Shown here: piece by piece, positions 1 through 56,730 of the stretch
How the letters are laid out: each line of letters opens with the position of its first letter
Position numbering within the stretch: the first letter of the stretch is position 1
Source of the DNA: Octopus vulgaris
Taxonomy: Eukaryota
Assembly (NCBI GenBank): GCA_951406725.2
Contig: OX597830.1
Span: 66,340,001 to 66,404,000, forward strand
Direction: 5' to 3'
DNA: 64,000 nucleotides
The notes under the pieces: generated by a model
The model's database searches: none
What the model was told of the DNA's origin: nothing
Seen by the model: the letters and a program-made list of their open reading frames with translations, nothing else
Position numbers and translations under genes: made by a program

Positions 1-471
1 CACTTGAGCCCGATGTGCTAACCACTGAGCCATGAGCCTTCACTTGAGTCCGATGTGCTAACCACTGAGCCATGAGCCTTCACTTGAGCCCGATGTGCTA
101 ACCACCGAGCCATGAGCCTTCACTTGAGCCCGATGTGCTAACCACTGAGCCATGAGCCTTCACATAAGCCCGATGTGCTAACCACCGAGCCATGAGCCTT
201 CACTTGAGCCCGATGTGCTAACCACCGAGCCATGAGCCTTCACTTGAGCCCGATGTGCTAACCACCGAGCCATGAGCCTTCACTTGAGCCCGATGTGCTA
301 ACCACTGAGCCATGAGCCTTCACTTGAGCCCGATGTGCTAACCACTGAGCCATGAGCCTTCACTTGAGCCCGATGTGCTAACCACTGAGCCATGAGCCTT
401 CACTTGAGCCCGATGTGCTAACCACTGAGCCATGAGCCCGATGTGCTAACCACTGAGCCATGAGCCTTCAC
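1..471 (-). repeat. 40-bp minisatellite (~11.5 copies, runs off window start) derived from a tRNA-like SINE head
   Basis: Unit cacttgagcccgatgtgctaaccactgagccatgagcctt. Its reverse complement (aaggctcatggctcagtggttagc...) matches the SINE head at 19236 (aaggtgcatggctcagtggttagag). Confidence 0.9.
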
Positions 472-4570: not shown

Positions 4571-5026
4571 TATATGTCTACTTTTCTGTCCTTGCACGGG
4601 TCAAATGAGTGTAAGTTGGGGTGGAGTTTTCTATGGTTGGATGCCCTTCCTGGTGCCAACCCCTATATGTTTCCAAGCGAGGTAATAAGTTTTCCGGTCT
4701 GTCGAACAACAAACAACCCAGGCATGGTTACACAAAGATATGAAAATTAATGACACCGTACGGATGAGGTTCTTCTTTATATAGATGAATCAACAGGATA
4801 AGACTTGTCATGAAGGCCTAATGGTGCTTTGGTGGCTGTGGATTGCAGGCAAAGAGCACCAGCTGTGTGAACAGTAAAACCTTTGTTTACAATCAACAAG
4901 CACACAGGAAAATACAACTTAATCCATACAGAAACATGTGCATGGCCACACACGCATACATACACACACAGACAAACAGGCACAGAGACACAAGCACACA
5001 AACACTGATTTGATATAATACATACA

Positions 5027-5062
<36 letters not shown>

Positions 5063-9174: not shown

Positions 9175-9505
9175 GGGTAAAGATCCCTCTTTGGTCACAA
9201 ATAACTATGGGATTGCACTTAGAAAGTTCCCCTCTGAAGTACAAATCTGGAAAAGGTTGTTTATGGAAGATCAGCAGTTGCCCGTGTATACCAGCCTCGC
9301 ATCTCCGTGCCACCGACATAATCCAAAGGAAAGGCAAAGGAGGCAATACAGCTTGGCACCAGTGATGTTGCAACTCATTTCTAGAGCTGAGTGAAGCATA
9401 ACAAATATGAAATAAAGTGTCTTGTTCACGAACACAACACAGCCTGATCCAGAGATTGAAATCACAACTTCAGAATTGTAAGTCTTATGCTCTAACCACT
9501 GAACA
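9175..9505 (-). mobile_element. SINE family C (tRNA head, ttgagcaagacactttattt motif)
   Basis: Homologous to 19235-19520 (+) and 30885-31608 (-). Confidence 0.8.
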
Positions 9506-19520: not shown

Positions 19521-20419
19521 TGCGTCGACAGGGTGACCAAATACTTGCAAGACAAAAACGTTTAAGAAGGGAGGGGGCATTGTAGGATGTGATGATGAAA
19601 AGGTTATAGTGAGACAAATACAGGTGTCTTGCTGTAGAGGAAGTACAAGTTTACCTGGCTGGAGAGAGAAAGATCAAGAATGGAAACAGAAACAGGTGTG
19701 CTACTACAAAGAAAATACACGGTTGCCCAACCCGAGGAAAGTGCAGGAGAAGGAGAGAGAGAGAGTGGGAGACAGACATTGTAGAGGACAACTTGCCCAA
19801 GGTGCCATGCAGTGAGACTGAACCTGAGACCATGTGGTTGGGAAGCAAACTTCTTAACCACACAGCCATGCTTGCACCTACACCACACCTGCACCTGTTA
19901 AATGAAAAATCATATTTTGTGTTCAAAAACAAATTTAACTACAGCTGAAGTTTTTGACTTGTTTGTGTTATTTAAAGCCATGGCTTATAACAATCACAGC
20001 AATGATGATGATGATAATTATCAAGAGTTGCTTAATTGTAGAAGGAATCTTATTAATATTAAAAAAAAAAGGAAGAAGAAAAACTTATTGCTTTCAGATA
20101 TAAAATAGCATAAATTTCTTTTCATTCTGACATTTTCATTGCTTCCAAAATAATGCAAATGTAATTAAAGTTGATTAAAATAACCCAGAAATAAATGAAA
20201 GTAAATAATTAACTCTAAAATTTCTAATTTTGTTCTATTCTCTAATATTTGTTTGTTCTACATCTTGTCTATCATTGTCACCATCACCACCACCACCACC
20301 ACCACCACCACCACCACCACCACCACCACCACCACCACTACCTCCACCACCACCACCACCACTACCTCCACCACCACCACCACCACCACCGAAATTTGGG
20401 GTGGGGGTGGGGTGCAAGT

Positions 20420-20935
20420 TGATTAGATCGACCCCAGTACACAACTGGTACTTAATTTATCGACTACCGGAAGGATGAAAGTCGACCTCGACAGAATCTG
20501 TACTCAGAATGTAAAGACAGACGAAATACCTATTTCTTTACTACCCACAAGGGGCTAAACACAGAGAGGACAAACAAGGACAGACAAATGGATTAAGTCG
20601 ATTAAATCAACCCCAGTGTATAACTGGTACTTATTTAATCGACTCCGAAAGGATGAAAGGCAAGGTCAACCTTGACGGAATTTGAACTCAGAATGTGAAG
20701 ACAGACGAAATACCTATTTCTTTACTGCCCGCAAGGGGCTAAACACAGAGAGGACAAACAAGGACAGACAAATGGATTAAGTCGATTAAATCAACCCCAG
20801 TGCATAACTAGTACTTATTTAATCGACTCCGAAAGGATGAAAGGCAAAGTCGACCTTGGCGAAATTTGAACTCAGAACGTAAAGACAGACGAAATGCCCC
20901 GTGTGCTAACGTTTCTGCCAGCTTGCTGCCTTTAA
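20420..20935 (-). mobile_element. SINE family B head-to-tail trimer
   Basis: Three units joined at the junction gaaatacc|tatttcttta. The central gcctttcatcctttcggggtcgataaa resembles the Meta/MESC-type SINE domain (recalled, unverified). Confidence 0.8.
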
Positions 20936-27812: not shown

Positions 27813-28168
27813 ATTAAGTCGATTATATCGACCCCAGTGCGTAACTGGTACTTATTGAATCGACCCCGAAAGGATGAAAGGCAAAGTTGACCTCAGTGGA
27901 ATTTGAACTCGGAACATAGTAGCACACGAAATACCTATTTCTTTACTACCCACAAGGGGCTAAACATAGAGAGGACAAACAAGGACAGACAAACGGATTA
28001 AGTCGATTATATCGACCCCAGTGCATAACTGGTACTTATTGAATCGACCCCGAAAGGATGAAAGGCAAAGTCGACCTCGGCGAAATTTGAACTCAGAACG
28101 TAACGGCAGATGAAATACCGCTAAGCATTTCACCCTGCGTGCTAACGGTTCTACCAGCTCGCCACCCT
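27813..28168 (-). mobile_element. SINE family B dimer inserted into the head of another SINE
   Basis: TSD taagtacaacaccctaacc (27793) / taagtacaacaccctaccc (28171). Confidence 0.85.
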
Positions 28169-29900: not shown

Positions 29901-30293
29901 TTAGCCAGAAAAATCCGCGATGTACTGGGGGCGTGATAGGTGAACCGTGATATGGCGAGTGATTACTGTATTACATCAACCCCAGTGCTCAACTGGTATT
30001 TATTTTATTGATCCTAAAATGATGAAAGGCAAAGTCGACCTCAGCGAGATTTGAACTTAGAATGTAAAGATGAACGAAAAGTCACTAAGCATTTTTTCCA
30101 ATGTGCTAAAGACACATATTAAGCCATTCAAAAGCATCAAAAACTATTAACTTCTCTTAAAGATTTATTGTTTAATGTCAAAATTTTCATCATACCAACA
30201 GAGACCTGGTCACTGACATGGTTGTAATGGTACTCTAATAGTGACCAGGTCACAGTTGATGTAATGAAAATTATGATACTAAATAGCAAATGT

Positions 30294-30745
30294 TTAACCC
30301 TTTAGTATTCAGCTTTCTCTGTCAAATGTAATGCTTATTTATTTGCATTTTTGAAAATTAACCCTTTAGTGTTTGAACCAGCTGTATCCGGCCCAAATAT
30401 TCTACACATTTTATGCTCAAACTGGCCAGAACATGCATCTCACACCTACCCTGCAATGTCACTCCAAAAATAAGCAATTACATCTTTCCTATCTTGAAGG
30501 TTCAAAATAATATCAGATAAATTTTTTTAAATGTGAATAAATAAGGATTATTTTTGACAAATTAATCTGAACGCTAAAGGGTTAATCATGTGTTATCTTG
30601 TAACTTAGAGATTTTGAAGATGTGATTGCTTATTTTTAGAATGGCATTATGGAGTAGGTCTGATATGCTGAATCTGGCTAGTTTGAACATAAAGCGGGTA
30701 GAATATTTGGGCTGGATATGTCCAGTTTATATGCTAAAAGGTTAA
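30294..30745. mobile_element. TTAA-flanked MITE with an inverted self-copy nested at 30358-30585
   Basis: Same architecture as 25494-25936. Confidence 0.8.
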
Positions 30746-30978
30746 GTGAAGTTAAAGTTTTTGTGTTTTTCAAAGGCTAATATCAATCTTCCTCATGTGT
30801 GTGTGGGGTGGGTGGGTGAAAAACACAAATTTGAGAGATATGGAAATATTTTTTAGTCCTTGGTCTTTGATAATCCTTAAAAGTGTAAAGACCTCCTTCA
30901 ATAATGAATGACCATGAGATTGCATCTAGAAAGTTCCCCTCAGAGGCACAAGTCTGGGCAAGGTTGTTCGTGGAAGAC

Positions 30979-31110
30979 TTGTTCAAAGAGATCGAGATGA
31001 AAAGGATCGCTTGCATACGACTCGACTTGCCGTTCGGAGTGACGTGCTTAGTAGAGCAGCTACCACGCTGCGATCTATTGAGTCTCTTCTCACGAACGAC
31101 ACGATTCGAT
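30979..31110 (+). pseudogene. Retrocopied 3'-terminal fragment of 28S (LSU) rRNA
   Basis: A CpG-rich island containing tagtagagcagctaccacgctgcgatctattga (31049-31081), which matches the conserved metazoan 28S 3' end (…tagcagagcagctccctcgctgcgatctattga…), with an upstream gcatacgac/gtagacgac motif. Confidence 0.8.
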
Positions 31111-31343
31111 AAGGTGGTGAGCTGGCAGAATCGTTAGCACGCCGGCTGAAATGCATAGCCGTATTTCGTCTGCCGTTACGTTCTGAGTTCAAATTCTGCC
31201 GAGGTCGACTTTGCCTTTCATCCTTTCGGGGTCAATAAATTAAGTACCAGTTACGCACTGGGGTCGATCTAATCGACTTAATCCGTTTGTCTGTCCTTGT
31301 TTGTCCCCTCTGTGTTTAGCCCCTTGTGGGTAGTAAAGAAATA
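31111..31343 (+). mobile_element. SINE family B, full length with tail
   Basis: Head aaggtggtgagctggcagaatcgttagc; tail gccccttgtgggtagtaaagaaata. Confidence 0.9.
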
Positions 31344-31833
31344 GGTTGTTTATGGAAGACCAGCAGTCACCCATGCATACCAGCCTCCCCTTTCCACGCC
31401 ACTGATATTATCCAAGGGAAAGGCAAAGGTTGACACAGCTTGGCACCAGTGACATAGCACCTCATTTCTACAGCTGAATGAACTGGAGCAATGTGAATTA
31501 AAGTGTTTTGCTTGCTCAAGAACACAACACACAACCCAGTGTGGGTATTAAACTTACTACCTCATGATTGTGAGCTTGTGGCTCTACCCACTGAGCCATG
31601 CACTTTCAATATATATTAAGGCAGTGAGCTGGCAGAATTGTTGGCACTTTGGGCAAAATGCCTAGTGGTATTTTGTCCATCTTTATTTTCTGAGTTCAAA
31701 TTCTGCCACAGTTGACATTGCCTTTCATCCTTTCAGCATCAATAAAGTAGGTACCAAATGAGCAATGGAGTCAATGTAAGACTTGTCTTCTCTCCTGAAA
31801 TTGCTGAATTTGTGCCAAAATTTGAAACCAATA

Positions 31834-52659: not shown

Positions 52660-52872
52660 TCTATGTTTGACTTTTGCTTTATATTTGTACAAGTTGGCTC
52701 CAAGTCTCACCCAGAGACCTCAAGAGACAACAGGGTTGGAAGTTCATGTTGTTGTTATGCCTAGTGTGCCATATATTTGGGGGGTGGGGATGTTGTACTA
52801 ATGAATGTCTAAAAAAAAAAAAGGTTTTTTTTTTTTTTAAACCGAAAATTATGTTTGTTTTAAACCTTGAGA

Positions 52873-53685
52873 TTATATAGAAAGTATTTTGCGTAGGATA
52901 TGAGCAGTTCCCATGAGCACTATCTTTTGAACTTCTGCCATTTTTGGGTTTCCTGGTATCTGAGTTAGGTAGCTATCAGCCCCTTTTGCTATCATTCCCA
53001 GGGCACCTATGACAACAGGTATTGTTTTAGTCTTCAGCTTCCACATTTTGCTGATTTCTATTTCAAGATCTTTATATTTGCTCAGTTTTTGGTAGGTCTT
53101 GACAGATACGTTTATATCGATTGGGACAGTCATATCAATGAGGAGGCATGTTCTTTGTTTGAAGTCTTTCAATATGATGTCTGGCCTATTTGCATCTATC
53201 TTCCTGTCAGTTTGAATGGTGAAGTTCCAGAGGAGTGAGATGTGGTCATTTTCAAGCACTGGGGGTGGTTTGTGTTCCCACCAGTTTTTTTCATGGGGCA
53301 AATCCAGGTTTTTACAGATTACCCAGTGAATATATTGTGCAGCTCTATCGTGCCTGTTGAGATACTCTGTAGGCGCTAGAAGACTGCACTTGGAGACCAC
53401 ATGGTCAATGGTTTCATTTTGTTGCTTGCATACACAACACGTTGGACTGCTTCTGATCTTTAATATGTTGGCCTGGTAGTTTCTTGTTGGTAGGCATTGA
53501 TCTTGAGCTGCTATGATAAACCCCTCTGTTTCAGATTTTAAGCCAGAGGCCATTAGCCATTGATGGGTCAGGGCTTTGTCGATATCTGCATTATTCGCTC
53601 TCTTTGGGTATTTGCCATAGAGAGGTTTTTCTTGCCATTTATTATTCAGAATATCTAAGGCTGCAGTTTTGGCATGGGTTTTCAT
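52873..53685 (-). CDS. C-terminal part of the LINE ORF: CCHC zinc knuckle plus PD-(D/E)xK restriction-like endonuclease
   Basis: CVCKQQNETIDHVVSKC, RHD, RPDII..LLIDMTVP, KLSKY; continues the RT ORF across a frameshift near 53690-53710. Confidence 0.92.
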   Translation of the reverse strand: MKTHAKTAALDILNNKWQEKPLYGKYPKRANNADIDKALTHQWLMASGLKSETEGFIIAAQDQCLPTRNYQANILKIRSSPTCCVCKQQNETIDHVVSKCSLLAPTEYLNRHDRAAQYIHWVICKNLDLPHEKNWWEHKPPPVLENDHISLLWNFTIQTDRKIDANRPDIILKDFKQRTCLLIDMTVPIDINVSVKTYQKLSKYKDLEIEISKMWKLKTKTIPVVIGALGMIAKGADSYLTQIPGNPKMAEVQKIVLMGTAHILRKILSI

Positions 53686-55580
53686 GCGCCTAGCTTTTTC
53701 TGTGCTTTTGTTTCTTGTATATCTATCTCTAATTCCGAAATTGGTTGTATTCGGAATTCACTTAGATATTCCTTTGCCTGTTTTGTGACTGAGTATGATG
53801 CTTTCTTGTTTTCATGTTTTGAGACAAGTTTTAACATCCAGTCCTCAGAGTTTTTCAGGTAGGTGTCTAGGCCAATTGTAGCAATCTTCATTGTTATTGC
53901 CAGTTGCAAAAGACCATGGCCTCCCTCTTTTCTTGGCAGATAGAGTCGTTCTGTATCTGCCTTAGGGTGGTGCATTCTATGCATTGTCAACAGTTTCCTT
54001 ATTTTTCTGTCGAGCTGACATATTTCAGTAATTGACCAGTTAACAATATTGAAACTGTAAGTCACGACTGGTATAGCTAATGCATTGATCGCTTCGATCC
54101 TGTTTCTTGCATTCAGCTCTGTCTTGAGTATTGCTCTCACTCTTCGATAGCATTCTCTCCTGATCCTTTCCTTCATCTCTGAATGCCTTATTCCGTTCCC
54201 TTCAATTACCCCTAGGTACTTGTAGCTCTCCGCTGGGTCTAGTTCTTTTATGACATTCTGTTGGTCAAGGTTAACGTTAGATGTTTCTGTCATTTTTCCT
54301 TTGATAAAGGTAGCCTTTGCACATTTATCGAGGCCGAATTGCATTCTGATGTCGTCACTGAATTGTTTGACTATCGCTAGTAAGCCCTTGAGTTGTTGAT
54401 CATTTTTTGCAAAAAGCTTTAAATCATCCATGTAAACGAGATGATTTATATTTTTATCAAACATTTTATACCCGTACTGCGCGTCATTGAGCAGCTTTGA
54501 GAGAGGTATTAAGGATAAACAAAAGAGGAGTGGTGACAGTGAGTCACCCTGGAAAATGCCACACAAAATGTTTACATCACCAGCATTTAGGGATTCACTG
54601 TCACTGTTCAGAGTTAGTGTGGTTCTCCATGATCTCATACTTACAGTCAAGAAGTTTCGCAGAGTTGGTGCTATCTTATACATTTCAAGGCATTTCCTAA
54701 TCCAGCTATGTGGTAGGCTATCAAAAGCCTTTTTATAGTCTATCCAGGCTATTGATAAGTTTTTGTGTCGTTTGTGACAATCTTCTAAGATCATCTTATT
54801 GATGAGTAGTTGGTCTTTACAGCTGTAGGATCCACGTTTACATCCTTTCTGTTCATTAGGGAATATGCTGCTGTCTGTTAAAAACCTATAGGTATATTCC
54901 GTCAGGACAGATGTTAGTGTTTTGTACATAGTTGTTAAGCAGGTTATGGGTCTATAGTTTTTTGGTTCATTTGTTTCTTCACTTTTTGGAAGCAGGAATG
55001 TTAACCCATTAACTAGCCAAGGAGGCATCCTACTAGGGTGTTGCAAAACATCATTGTACAGTTCTGTTAGCAGTTCATGGCTCTCTGGGAAGGCATTCAG
55101 CCAGAAGTTAGGAATTTTATCCTTTCCTGGAGACTTCCATTTGCTTGACCTCCTGAGAGCAGATCTTATATCTTCTACCTTGACACCCTCCCACTTTTGC
55201 TCTTCTAAGGGGTCCAGTTCTGTAGATATTCTGTCAATCCAGAGGGCCTTTTCGTTGTGTGTTTTTTGTTCTGCCCAGATTTTATTCCAAAATCTCTGCA
55301 CTTCTTCTTTTGATGGTACAGACCCTGCAGTAAACGCTGTTTTTCCTATCTTCCTGTAAAAATTCTTGGTGTTATTTTTGAACATGTTGTTGTCCTTGAA
55401 AAATCTAACACGCTTTTCATACCTCGCTATGCGGGCAGCTTTGGCAGATACCTTTTGTTTGATGGTTTCTATGGTGGCATCAATATCAAGTATAGTTTTC
55501 ATATTGTATTTTTTCAGTAATTTTGGGGTTTTTGTAGGTTTGGTAGTCTTGTGAGCCTTAAGGTTTTTCAAATATTCAAA
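53682..55580 (-). CDS. Reverse transcriptase domain of the LINE ORF (the N-terminal poly-M/I is microsatellite read-through)
   Basis: YRPITCL, QKG, WIDYKKAFDS, GIFQGDSLSPLLF, YMDD, FGLDKC and YKYLG motifs. Confidence 0.95.
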   Translation of the reverse strand, partial: FEYLKNLKAHKTTKPTKTPKLLKKYNMKTILDIDATIETIKQKVSAKAARIARYEKRVRFFKDNNMFKNNTKNFYRKIGKTAFTAGSVPSKEEVQRFWNKIWAEQKTHNEKALWIDRISTELDPLEEQKWEGVKVEDIRSALRRSSKWKSPGKDKIPNFWLNAFPESHELLTELYNDVLQHPSRMPPWLVNGLTFLLPKSEETNEPKNYRPITCLTTMYKTLTSVLTEYTYRFLTDSSIFPNEQKGCKRGSYSCKDQLLINKMILEDCHKRHKNLSIAWIDYKKAFDSLPHSWIRKCLEMYKIAPTLRNFLTVSMRSWRTTLTLNSDSESLNAGDVNILCGIFQGDSLSPLLFCLSLIPLSKLLNDAQYGYKMFDKNINHLVYMDDLKLFAKNDQQLKGLLAIVKQFSDDIRMQFGLDKCAKATFIKGKMTETSNVNLDQQNVIKELDPAESYKYLGVIEGNGIRHSEMKERIRRECYRRVRAILKTELNARNRIEAINALAIPVVTYSFNIVNWSITEICQLDRKIRKLLTMHRMHHPKADTERLYLPRKEGGHGLLQLAITMKIATIGLDTYLKNSEDWMLKLVSKHENKKASYSVTKQAKEYLSEFRIQPISELEIDIQETKAQKKLGA

Positions 55581-55611
<31 letters not shown>

Positions 55612-55613
55612 GA

Positions 55614-55753
<140 letters not shown>

Positions 55754-55769
55754 CCATCATCATTATCAT

Positions 55770-56730
<961 letters not shown>

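What the first reader, a model, noticed from the sequence alone, without database searches (positions are those of the whole stretch)
30961..31360. Chimeric retrocopy: 28S rRNA 3' end fused to a SINE inside one TSD
Seen: an 18-bp duplication of host SINE-C sequence (aggttgttcgtggaagac at 30961-78; aggttgtttatggaagac at 31343-60) encloses ~130 bp of CpG-rich sequence followed directly by a full SINE-B. The 130 bp contain the conserved 28S 3'-terminal motif gagcagct..cgctgcgatctattga. Known: LINE RTs template-switch onto cellular RNAs (e.g. U6-L1 chimeras), and mammalian SINE28 derives from the 28S 3' end. Inference: the RT copied SINE-B and then jumped to the 3' end of mature 28S rRNA. If the same junction is multicopy, it would be a new rRNA-headed SINE family, or reflect a SINE inserted at the end of an rDNA unit.
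Basis: partly seen in the sequence, partly recalled or inferred. Interest (0 to 1): 0.75.

Follow-up and report, generated by a model that had tools for sequence, protein, structure and literature searches.

The report
28S rRNA end fused to SINE
The last 132 bases of the host's 28S ribosomal RNA sit head-to-tail against a complete short mobile element inside one target-site duplication, likely because the element's borrowed copying enzyme jumped onto the ribosomal RNA's end; the same join probably recurs at a few other places, but this is a rare by-product of a known kind and probably not a new family of mobile DNA.

Summary
Observation confirmed. Rfam's eukaryotic LSU model ends at 31109 (E 4.8e-10 on 261 bases). 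A full-length tRNA-type SINE starts at 31111 with no spacer. An 18-bp duplication (2 mismatches) encloses both; it occurs once in uninterrupted host-SINE copies, and neither part has its own duplication. In four runs the dominant contigs differ from the piece at three or more sites, so it is a mutated copy of host 28S. Two of five listed 28S-bearing contigs from other loci run 25 and 28 letters into the SINE head: the junction probably recurs, though this is below the tool's 31-letter bridging rule. Contig counts (at most 37, against the 128 cap for true SINEs) argue against a high-copy family. Best reading: one insertion in which the reverse transcriptase finished the SINE RNA and jumped to the mature 28S 3' end (inferred, about 0.62). 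Precedents in print: 28S/L1 chimeras (1 of 18 uses the 28S terminus), R2 jumps, SINE28, MeloSINE. This scan noted rRNA-SINE/LINE chimeras in other genomes before. A clean invertebrate variant of a known kind.

The parts
30880..30960 (+). 5' part of the older host SINE ('SINE-C') that was interrupted
   Evidence: aligns to the copies at 9200 and 19514
30961..30978 (+). left copy of the 18-bp target-site duplication (17 bp from GGT if the first A is counted to the SINE tail); carries CG where the other three copies read TA
30979..31110 (+). 5'-truncated copy of the last 132 nt of host 28S rRNA, ending at the predicted mature 3' end (GATTCGAT, 31103-31110); at least 3 substitutions against the dominant rDNA-like contigs (31022, 31067, 31092)
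   Evidence: Rfam; 56 LSU ends from metagenomes; contigs; fold z -2.5
31111..31342 (+). full-length young tRNA-type SINE ('SINE-B'), A box 31123-31133, B box 31187-31195, tail ending AAAGAAAT(A)
   Evidence: 92% identical to copies at 28166 and 56633; alignment; boxes (box patterns recalled)
31343..31360 (+). right copy of the target-site duplication
31361..31600 (+). 3' part of the interrupted host SINE-C
   Evidence: 83% to 19497-19242, 76% to 9254-9502

Best explanation
This is one retrotransposition product: a LINE reverse transcriptase likely primed at a GGT target inside an older SINE, copied a SINE-B RNA to its 5' end, likely jumped end-to-end onto the free 3' end of mature 28S rRNA, copied 132 nt and closed the 5' joint on 1-2 nt of microhomology, leaving one 18-bp duplication around both parts. 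Shown: 28S identity, junction at the predicted mature end, full-length SINE, one enclosing duplication, SINE-type target. Inferred: the order of copying, the jump, the microhomology. The event probably happened independently a few times in these genomes; the product is likely dead as a unit, since the SINE's internal Pol III promoter would start transcription behind the 28S piece.
For: (1) Rfam LSU model ends at 31109, SINE starts at 31111. The terminal GATT[TC]G lies 20 nt behind the conserved motif, as in 38 of 56 distinct LSU ends from metagenomes (19-23 nt in 55 of 56); a profile of only the 55 nt upstream of the search motif finds 31006-31054 as best hit in 64 kb, E 0.003. (2) One duplication around both parts, none adjoining either part alone. 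(3) All 4 SINE-B duplications examined in the window start on GG(T/G)T, and all 5 tail ends are followed by AGGT: the target here is the SINE's usual one, so priming was at the SINE end. (4) Dominant contigs read another letter at 31022, 31067, 31092 in 89-100% of depth in all 4 runs, and the RNA-like run X10 is deep over the piece (63,000-183,000) with 0 on the unique flank: a mutated copy of an abundant host sequence. (5) 4 of the 5 listed 28S-bearing contigs from other loci align from 30977 or 30978, 1-2 nt into the duplication: microhomology, no added bases. (6) X6 records 25 and 26 (about 90% alike, different upstream DNA, 28S match starting at 30977 and 30999) run to 31135 and 31138, each to its contig end; by chance blastn does that in 3-4 of 20000 trials, 23-24 of 20000 with very loose scoring (the tool's own aligner is not known). 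(7) In print: R2 RT jumps from the 5' end of its RNA to U12 and to mature tRNA in vivo (PMC3414825, passages); a human insertion joins LSU 4958-5034 of 5035 to a 6.2-kb L1PA3 (PMC13174262 supplement 3); a 5' triphosphate strongly lowers RtcB ligation (PMC6789731, passages).
Against: No listed contig bridges either junction of this very locus, so the insertion is not confirmed in independent reads (tables were cut because SINE contigs swamped them). Records 25 and 26 have 25 and 28 letters on the SINE side, under the tool's 31-letter rule, and their letters were not shown; the head they enter is shared with an older short-tailed SINE. 3 of the 5 listed 28S pieces stop at 31093-31105 and do not enter the SINE. 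The host's true 28S end and 3' spacer were not seen. The 28S part looks a little less diverged (at least 3 of 132) than the SINE part (13 of 226 against three neighbours). The partner LINE is unknown. Sequence cannot tell a jump from prior RNA ligation.
Confidence: 0.62

Rival explanations
1. A low-copy composite family: one 28S::SINE fusion became a master, transcribed from upstream or from a promoter in the 28S piece, and the copies are its variably 5'-truncated offspring (MeloSINE- or SINEU-like).
For: Same junction at two further loci (records 25, 26). MeloSINE shows that a 28S-headed SINE can amplify (805 copies). Longo et al. report Pol III transcription of 28S 3' fragments (PMC4994717, sections 9 part 1 and 13).
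Against: No A or B box in the 28S piece. The 5' ends differ (30979; 30999). Plain SINE-B is hugely abundant, which is Kojima's criterion for independent chimeras (PMC4494074, passage).
Confidence: 0.12
2. RNA ligation first: 28S rRNA (or a 3' fragment) was ligated to SINE RNA, RtcB-style, and the fused RNA was retrotransposed.
For: Same orientation, end-to-end join without spacer; shown mechanism for U6/L1 (PMC6789731, passages).
Against: RtcB needs a 2',3'-cyclic phosphate and a 5'-OH, and a 5' triphosphate or 3'-OH strongly lowers ligation. The SINE is full-length, so its RNA would carry a Pol III 5' triphosphate, and mature 28S is expected to end in 3'-OH (both recalled, not tested for this host).
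Confidence: 0.1
3. A SINE-B sits directly behind the 28S end in some rDNA units; Pol I read-through gave a 28S-SINE RNA that was retrotransposed.
For: Would explain a recurrent junction. The host's 3' spacer was not seen, so it is not directly excluded.
Against: SINE-B duplications start with GG(T/G)T and end 0-10 nt before the head (4 of 4); the last 20 nt of the 28S piece hold no GGT. The join falls on the predicted mature end with no spacer base, a coincidence under this model. 3 of 5 listed 28S ends do not go on into the SINE.
Confidence: 0.08
4. Two separate insertions at one spot, DNA-level capture, or an assembly error.
For: No listed contig bridges this locus; the duplication has 2 mismatches.
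Against: No duplication around either part alone. SINE heads occur 8 times in 128,000 strand positions, so a chance landing within 3 nt of a 28S end is about 4e-4 per end. An assembly error would not give an 18-bp duplication plus three private substitutions in the rRNA part.
Confidence: 0.08

Closest known systems
[quoted passage not shown]
   Same: 28S piece 5' of a retroelement, same orientation (83% of 18), one insertion; one row (chr8, LSU 4958-5034 of 5035, 6.2-kb L1PA3) uses the 28S terminus as here.
   Different: 17 of the 18 rows use internal 28S pieces; partner is L1, not a tRNA SINE; the terminal row shows a 28-bp gap between annotations and no duplication listed.
In vivo template jumps of R2 to U12 snRNA and mature tRNA (PMC3414825; passages); U6/L1 and snRNA/Alu chimeras (as summarised in PMC4494074, passage)
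   Same: Full 5' end of the first template joined to the natural 3' end of an abundant stable RNA.
   Different: Here the first template is a non-autonomous SINE and the second a large rRNA; the enzyme is unidentified.
SINE28 and sd28alu of mammals (PMC4994717; sections 9 part 1 and 13 read)
   Same: Derived from the 28S 3' end, 5'-truncated, flanked by duplications; eight human 3'-LSU pieces lie next to an Alu.
   Different: SINE28 has an A-rich tail directly behind the rRNA, no second element; sd28alu copies were put down to segmental duplication; the authors found SINE28 only in mammals.
MeloSINE of budgerigar (PMC4844689; one figure legend passage and supplement hits)
   Same: 28S-derived sequence at the 5' end of a non-autonomous retroelement.
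   Different: An amplified family (805 copies) on a bipartite RTE body; the part of its head that I saw is a longer, more internal 28S stretch (placement recalled); here a complete tRNA head with its own promoter follows the 28S piece and copies are few.

Membership tests
Chimeric retrocopy (cellular RNA + retroelement, one event) | 5' part derives from a cellular RNA | tested here: met
   Rfam LSU; host contigs
Chimeric retrocopy (cellular RNA + retroelement, one event) | 3' part is a retroelement with intact 3' end, same orientation, directly joined | tested here: met
   SINE-B 31111-31342
Chimeric retrocopy (cellular RNA + retroelement, one event) | One duplication around both parts, none around either | tested here: met
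Chimeric retrocopy (cellular RNA + retroelement, one event) | Orthologous sites hold both parts or neither | tested here: inconclusive
   no listed contig bridges the locus
Template-jump chimera (as against ligation chimera) | Join made by the reverse transcriptase, not present as RNA beforehand | not testable with these tools
   only contigs were offered; end chemistry argues for a jump
SINE28 | 28S 3' fragment followed directly by an A-rich tail | tested here: not met
   a tRNA SINE follows
SINE28 | Pol III boxes or transcription from the 28S part | tested here: inconclusive
   no canonical A or B box by pattern; transcription not testable
28S-headed SINE family (MeloSINE type) | Many copies of uniform chimeric structure | tested here: not met
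   at most 37 contigs over the piece, rDNA included; 2 other junctions seen with different 5' ends; indirect, tables cut
28S-headed SINE family (MeloSINE type) | Shared derived substitutions pointing to a master copy | not testable with these tools
   letters of the other loci were not shown; no genome held
Named octopus SINE families (OK, OR1, OR2; Nin/Deu domain) | Identity to the published consensus | not tested
   no consensus found in the passages read; the resemblance of SINE-B to octopus Nin/Deu-type SINEs is recalled only

The most novel reading that the evidence does not exclude
This SINE lineage captures the exact 3' end of mature 28S rRNA again and again, and one such fusion has become a small 28S-headed composite SINE family in an invertebrate: a SINE28/MeloSINE-type birth caught early, with a countable genomic record of where the reverse transcriptase meets the large ribosomal subunit.
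Probability: 0.12. Interest if true: 0.6.

Novelty: new variant of a known kind. Interest (0 to 1): 0.35.

Why it matters
Both sides of the join are natural RNA ends (mature 28S 3' end, full SINE 5' end), which is the pattern an end-to-end jump predicts and RtcB ligation does not. If the junction recurs as the contigs suggest, this genome holds a small set of independent events for asking how SINEs gain new heads and whether SINE RNA is copied next to ribosomes. The copy also marks the host's 28S 3' end to about one base. As a single dead insertion it has no likely function.

Tried and rejected
No whole genome is held, so junctions could not be counted directly. Rfam on 6 kb missed the LSU match and gave only sub-threshold microRNA-like hits. 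ARAGORN found no tRNA gene in the window. A 30-nt host-type 28S motif gave 0 matches in metagenome contigs; a SINE-B motif gave 0 in viral and 0 in prokaryotic genome contigs: the host's DNA is not in those collections. My idea that the CG in the left duplication is 28S-derived (long microhomology) was rejected: other 28S contigs align only from 30977-30978. Loose ends at 30978 and 31110 were among 2868 rows not shown. The window's LINE (52690-55781) was checked as partner: its 3' end gave no blastn hit to SINE-B and looks unlike its tail. Look-ups of earlier findings by sequence and by place were empty. Paper searches showed no report of a 28S-terminus + full tRNA-SINE chimera in molluscs; the library lacks most subscription papers (Buzdin 2003, Ohshima and Okada 1994, Bibillo and Eickbush 2004 were seen only as citations) and bioRxiv supplements are closed.

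Full report
Observation. The two 18-mers stand at 30961-30978 and 31343-31360 with two adjacent mismatches. The pattern has 5 matches in the window at up to 3 mismatches against 0.15 expected, and the two other host-SINE copies hold it once each. With the insert and one copy removed in a script, the site aligns without a gap at the join to both copies (259 of 322, 234 of 270). Contigs that skip exactly these 382 bases are listed in all four runs laid (11, 14, 16, 3).

The middle piece is 28S. Scanned on 261 bases, Rfam LSU_rRNA_eukarya matches with its last position (3401 of 3401) at 31109, 45.8 bits, E 4.8e-10, and the terminal helices pair. The 6-kb scan did not list it, and the score is under the gathering value of 50. 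The terminal GATT[TC]G lies 20 nt behind the search motif in the window and in 38 of 56 (19-23 nt in 55 of 56). A profile of only the 55 nt upstream of the motif finds 31006-31054 as best hit in the window (E 0.003). The predicted mature end is 31109 or 31110; SINE-B starts at 31111. There is no room for a spacer. The host's real end was not measured.

It is a copy of the host's own rRNA. I laid 4 of the 24 listed runs (three DNA, one guessed RNA; two coded organisms; contigs only; X1 read to about 80%) on 30700-31500 at 85% likeness. At 31022, 31067 and 31092 another letter holds 89-100% of the depth in all four runs; 68 rows were not shown, so three differences in 132 is a lower bound. In the RNA-like run the piece is deep and the unique flank has depth 0. 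Four of five listed 28S-bearing contigs from other loci align from 30977 or 30978, so all 132 bases are 28S-like and the 5' joint has 1-2 nt of microhomology.

One event, primed at the SINE. Neither the SINE alone nor the 28S piece alone has an adjoining duplication. The other three SINE-B insertions examined in the window have duplications of 14, 14 and 19 bp that start on GG(T/G)T, and all five tail ends are followed by AGGT. The target here begins the same way. By the standard TPRT model the 3' part is copied first, so the SINE was the first template and 28S the second. Divergences are roughly alike (28S at least 3 of 132; SINE 13 of 226 against the majority of three neighbours; duplication 2 of 18), but this is no real dating.

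Does the junction recur? Two contigs of run X6 align through it: record 25 (30977-31135, 13 other letters, 3 gaps, 192 upstream letters unaligned) and record 26 (30999-31138, 15 other letters, 2 gaps, 669 upstream letters unaligned), each to its last letter. They are not this locus, whose flank would align. They hold 25 and 28 letters on the SINE side, under the tool's 31-letter rule; a contig that enters a high-copy repeat is expected to end within about 30 letters (my reasoning from 31-letter words), so the rule can hardly be met here. In simulations blastn ran that far to the end of a random flank in 3-4 of 20000 trials, 23-24 of 20000 with very loose scoring; a looser count that kept real SINE heads in the pool gave 37 and 91 of 20000. 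The tool's aligner may differ and the letters were not shown. The other three listed 28S pieces stop at 31093-31105 and do not enter the SINE, and the list favours long pieces, so 2 of 5 is no rate. I put about 0.85 on these being real junctions. The head they enter is shared with an older short-tailed SINE.

Family or by-product? Depth left for other letters at 31067 equals a few single-copy depths. The tool warns that depth is no copy number, and very young copies would merge with rDNA contigs, so this bounds but does not count. The SINE's A and B boxes lie behind the 28S piece, which has none (patterns recalled), so normal transcription would drop the head. Kojima's test for independent chimeras, many plain copies of the 3' partner (PMC4494074, passage), is met.

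Mechanism. An end-to-end jump is the best reading (0.62). R2 RT does this in vivo onto U12 and CCA-bearing tRNA (PMC3414825, passages). Ligation, shown for U6/L1, needs a cyclic phosphate and a 5'-OH and is strongly lowered by a 3'-OH or 5' triphosphate (PMC6789731, passages); a full-length Pol III SINE RNA should carry a triphosphate (recalled), so 0.10. A SINE resident behind 28S in rDNA should show its GGT target in the last bases of 28S, which are free of it (0.08). A small master-driven family gets 0.12; sequential insertion or assembly error 0.08. The partner LINE is unknown. No listed contig bridges this locus itself.

Comparison and novelty. Human 28S/L1 chimeras number 18, and one uses LSU 4958-5034 of 5035 with a 6.2-kb L1PA3 (PMC13174262, passages and supplement 3). 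SINE28 is the 28S 3' end with an A tail, reported only in mammals (PMC4994717, two sections). MeloSINE is a 28S-headed family of 805 copies (PMC4844689, legend and supplement; found through PMC7245038, passage). Nine searches showed no 28S-terminus plus full tRNA-SINE chimera in molluscs. Earlier notes of this scan describe 18S-SINE and 18S-L2 chimeras in other genomes (unchecked).

Verdict. Real, well-formed chimeric retrocopy; new variant of a known kind; interest 0.35.

Noticed in passing
window 20416-20932 (-) and 27813-28168 (-): SINE-B forms head-to-tail arrays [1-238][54-238]... by landing on its own internal GGTATTT site; the same back-joint (31344>31161) is listed in 69, 54, 60 and 50 contigs of the four runs. 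With the GGT start of all four duplications this points to a sequence-preferring endonuclease or tail-target annealing.
   Followed up: partly
window 52690-55781 (-): LINE remnant in two frames (RVT_1 E 8e-28; zf-RVT E 4e-6) ending in a long (TAA)n run; its C-terminal motifs look like an R4/Dong restriction-like endonuclease (recalled). Dong-R4 is listed as recently active in O. vulgaris (PMC13282606, passage). Tail unlike SINE-B's.
   Followed up: partly
X1 record 2, X3 records 17 and 18: Low-depth contigs with 85-91% alike 28S 3'-end pieces that do not enter the SINE: probably SINE28-like or tailless 28S pseudogenes outside mammals; what follows them was not shown.
   Followed up: no
window 30969-30970: The left duplication reads CG where the right one and both other host-SINE copies read TA: two adjacent changes that create a CpG; not explained by 28S microhomology.
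   Followed up: partly
window 56634-56643 (-): A 10-nt partial repeat of the target lies between the duplication and the 5' end of the SINE-B at 56633, a sign of slippage at 5' joining.
   Followed up: no
window 30183-30271: Near-perfect 89-bp hairpin (sub-threshold MIR845 hit), probably a small inverted-repeat element.
   Followed up: no
window 18-462: 40-bp tandem repeat that shares a 17-nt stretch with the 3' part of SINE-C.
   Followed up: no
L040: An LSU end from a metagenome that breaks off 7 nt behind the motif into unrelated sequence; could be an insertion in the rDNA or a mis-join.
   Followed up: no
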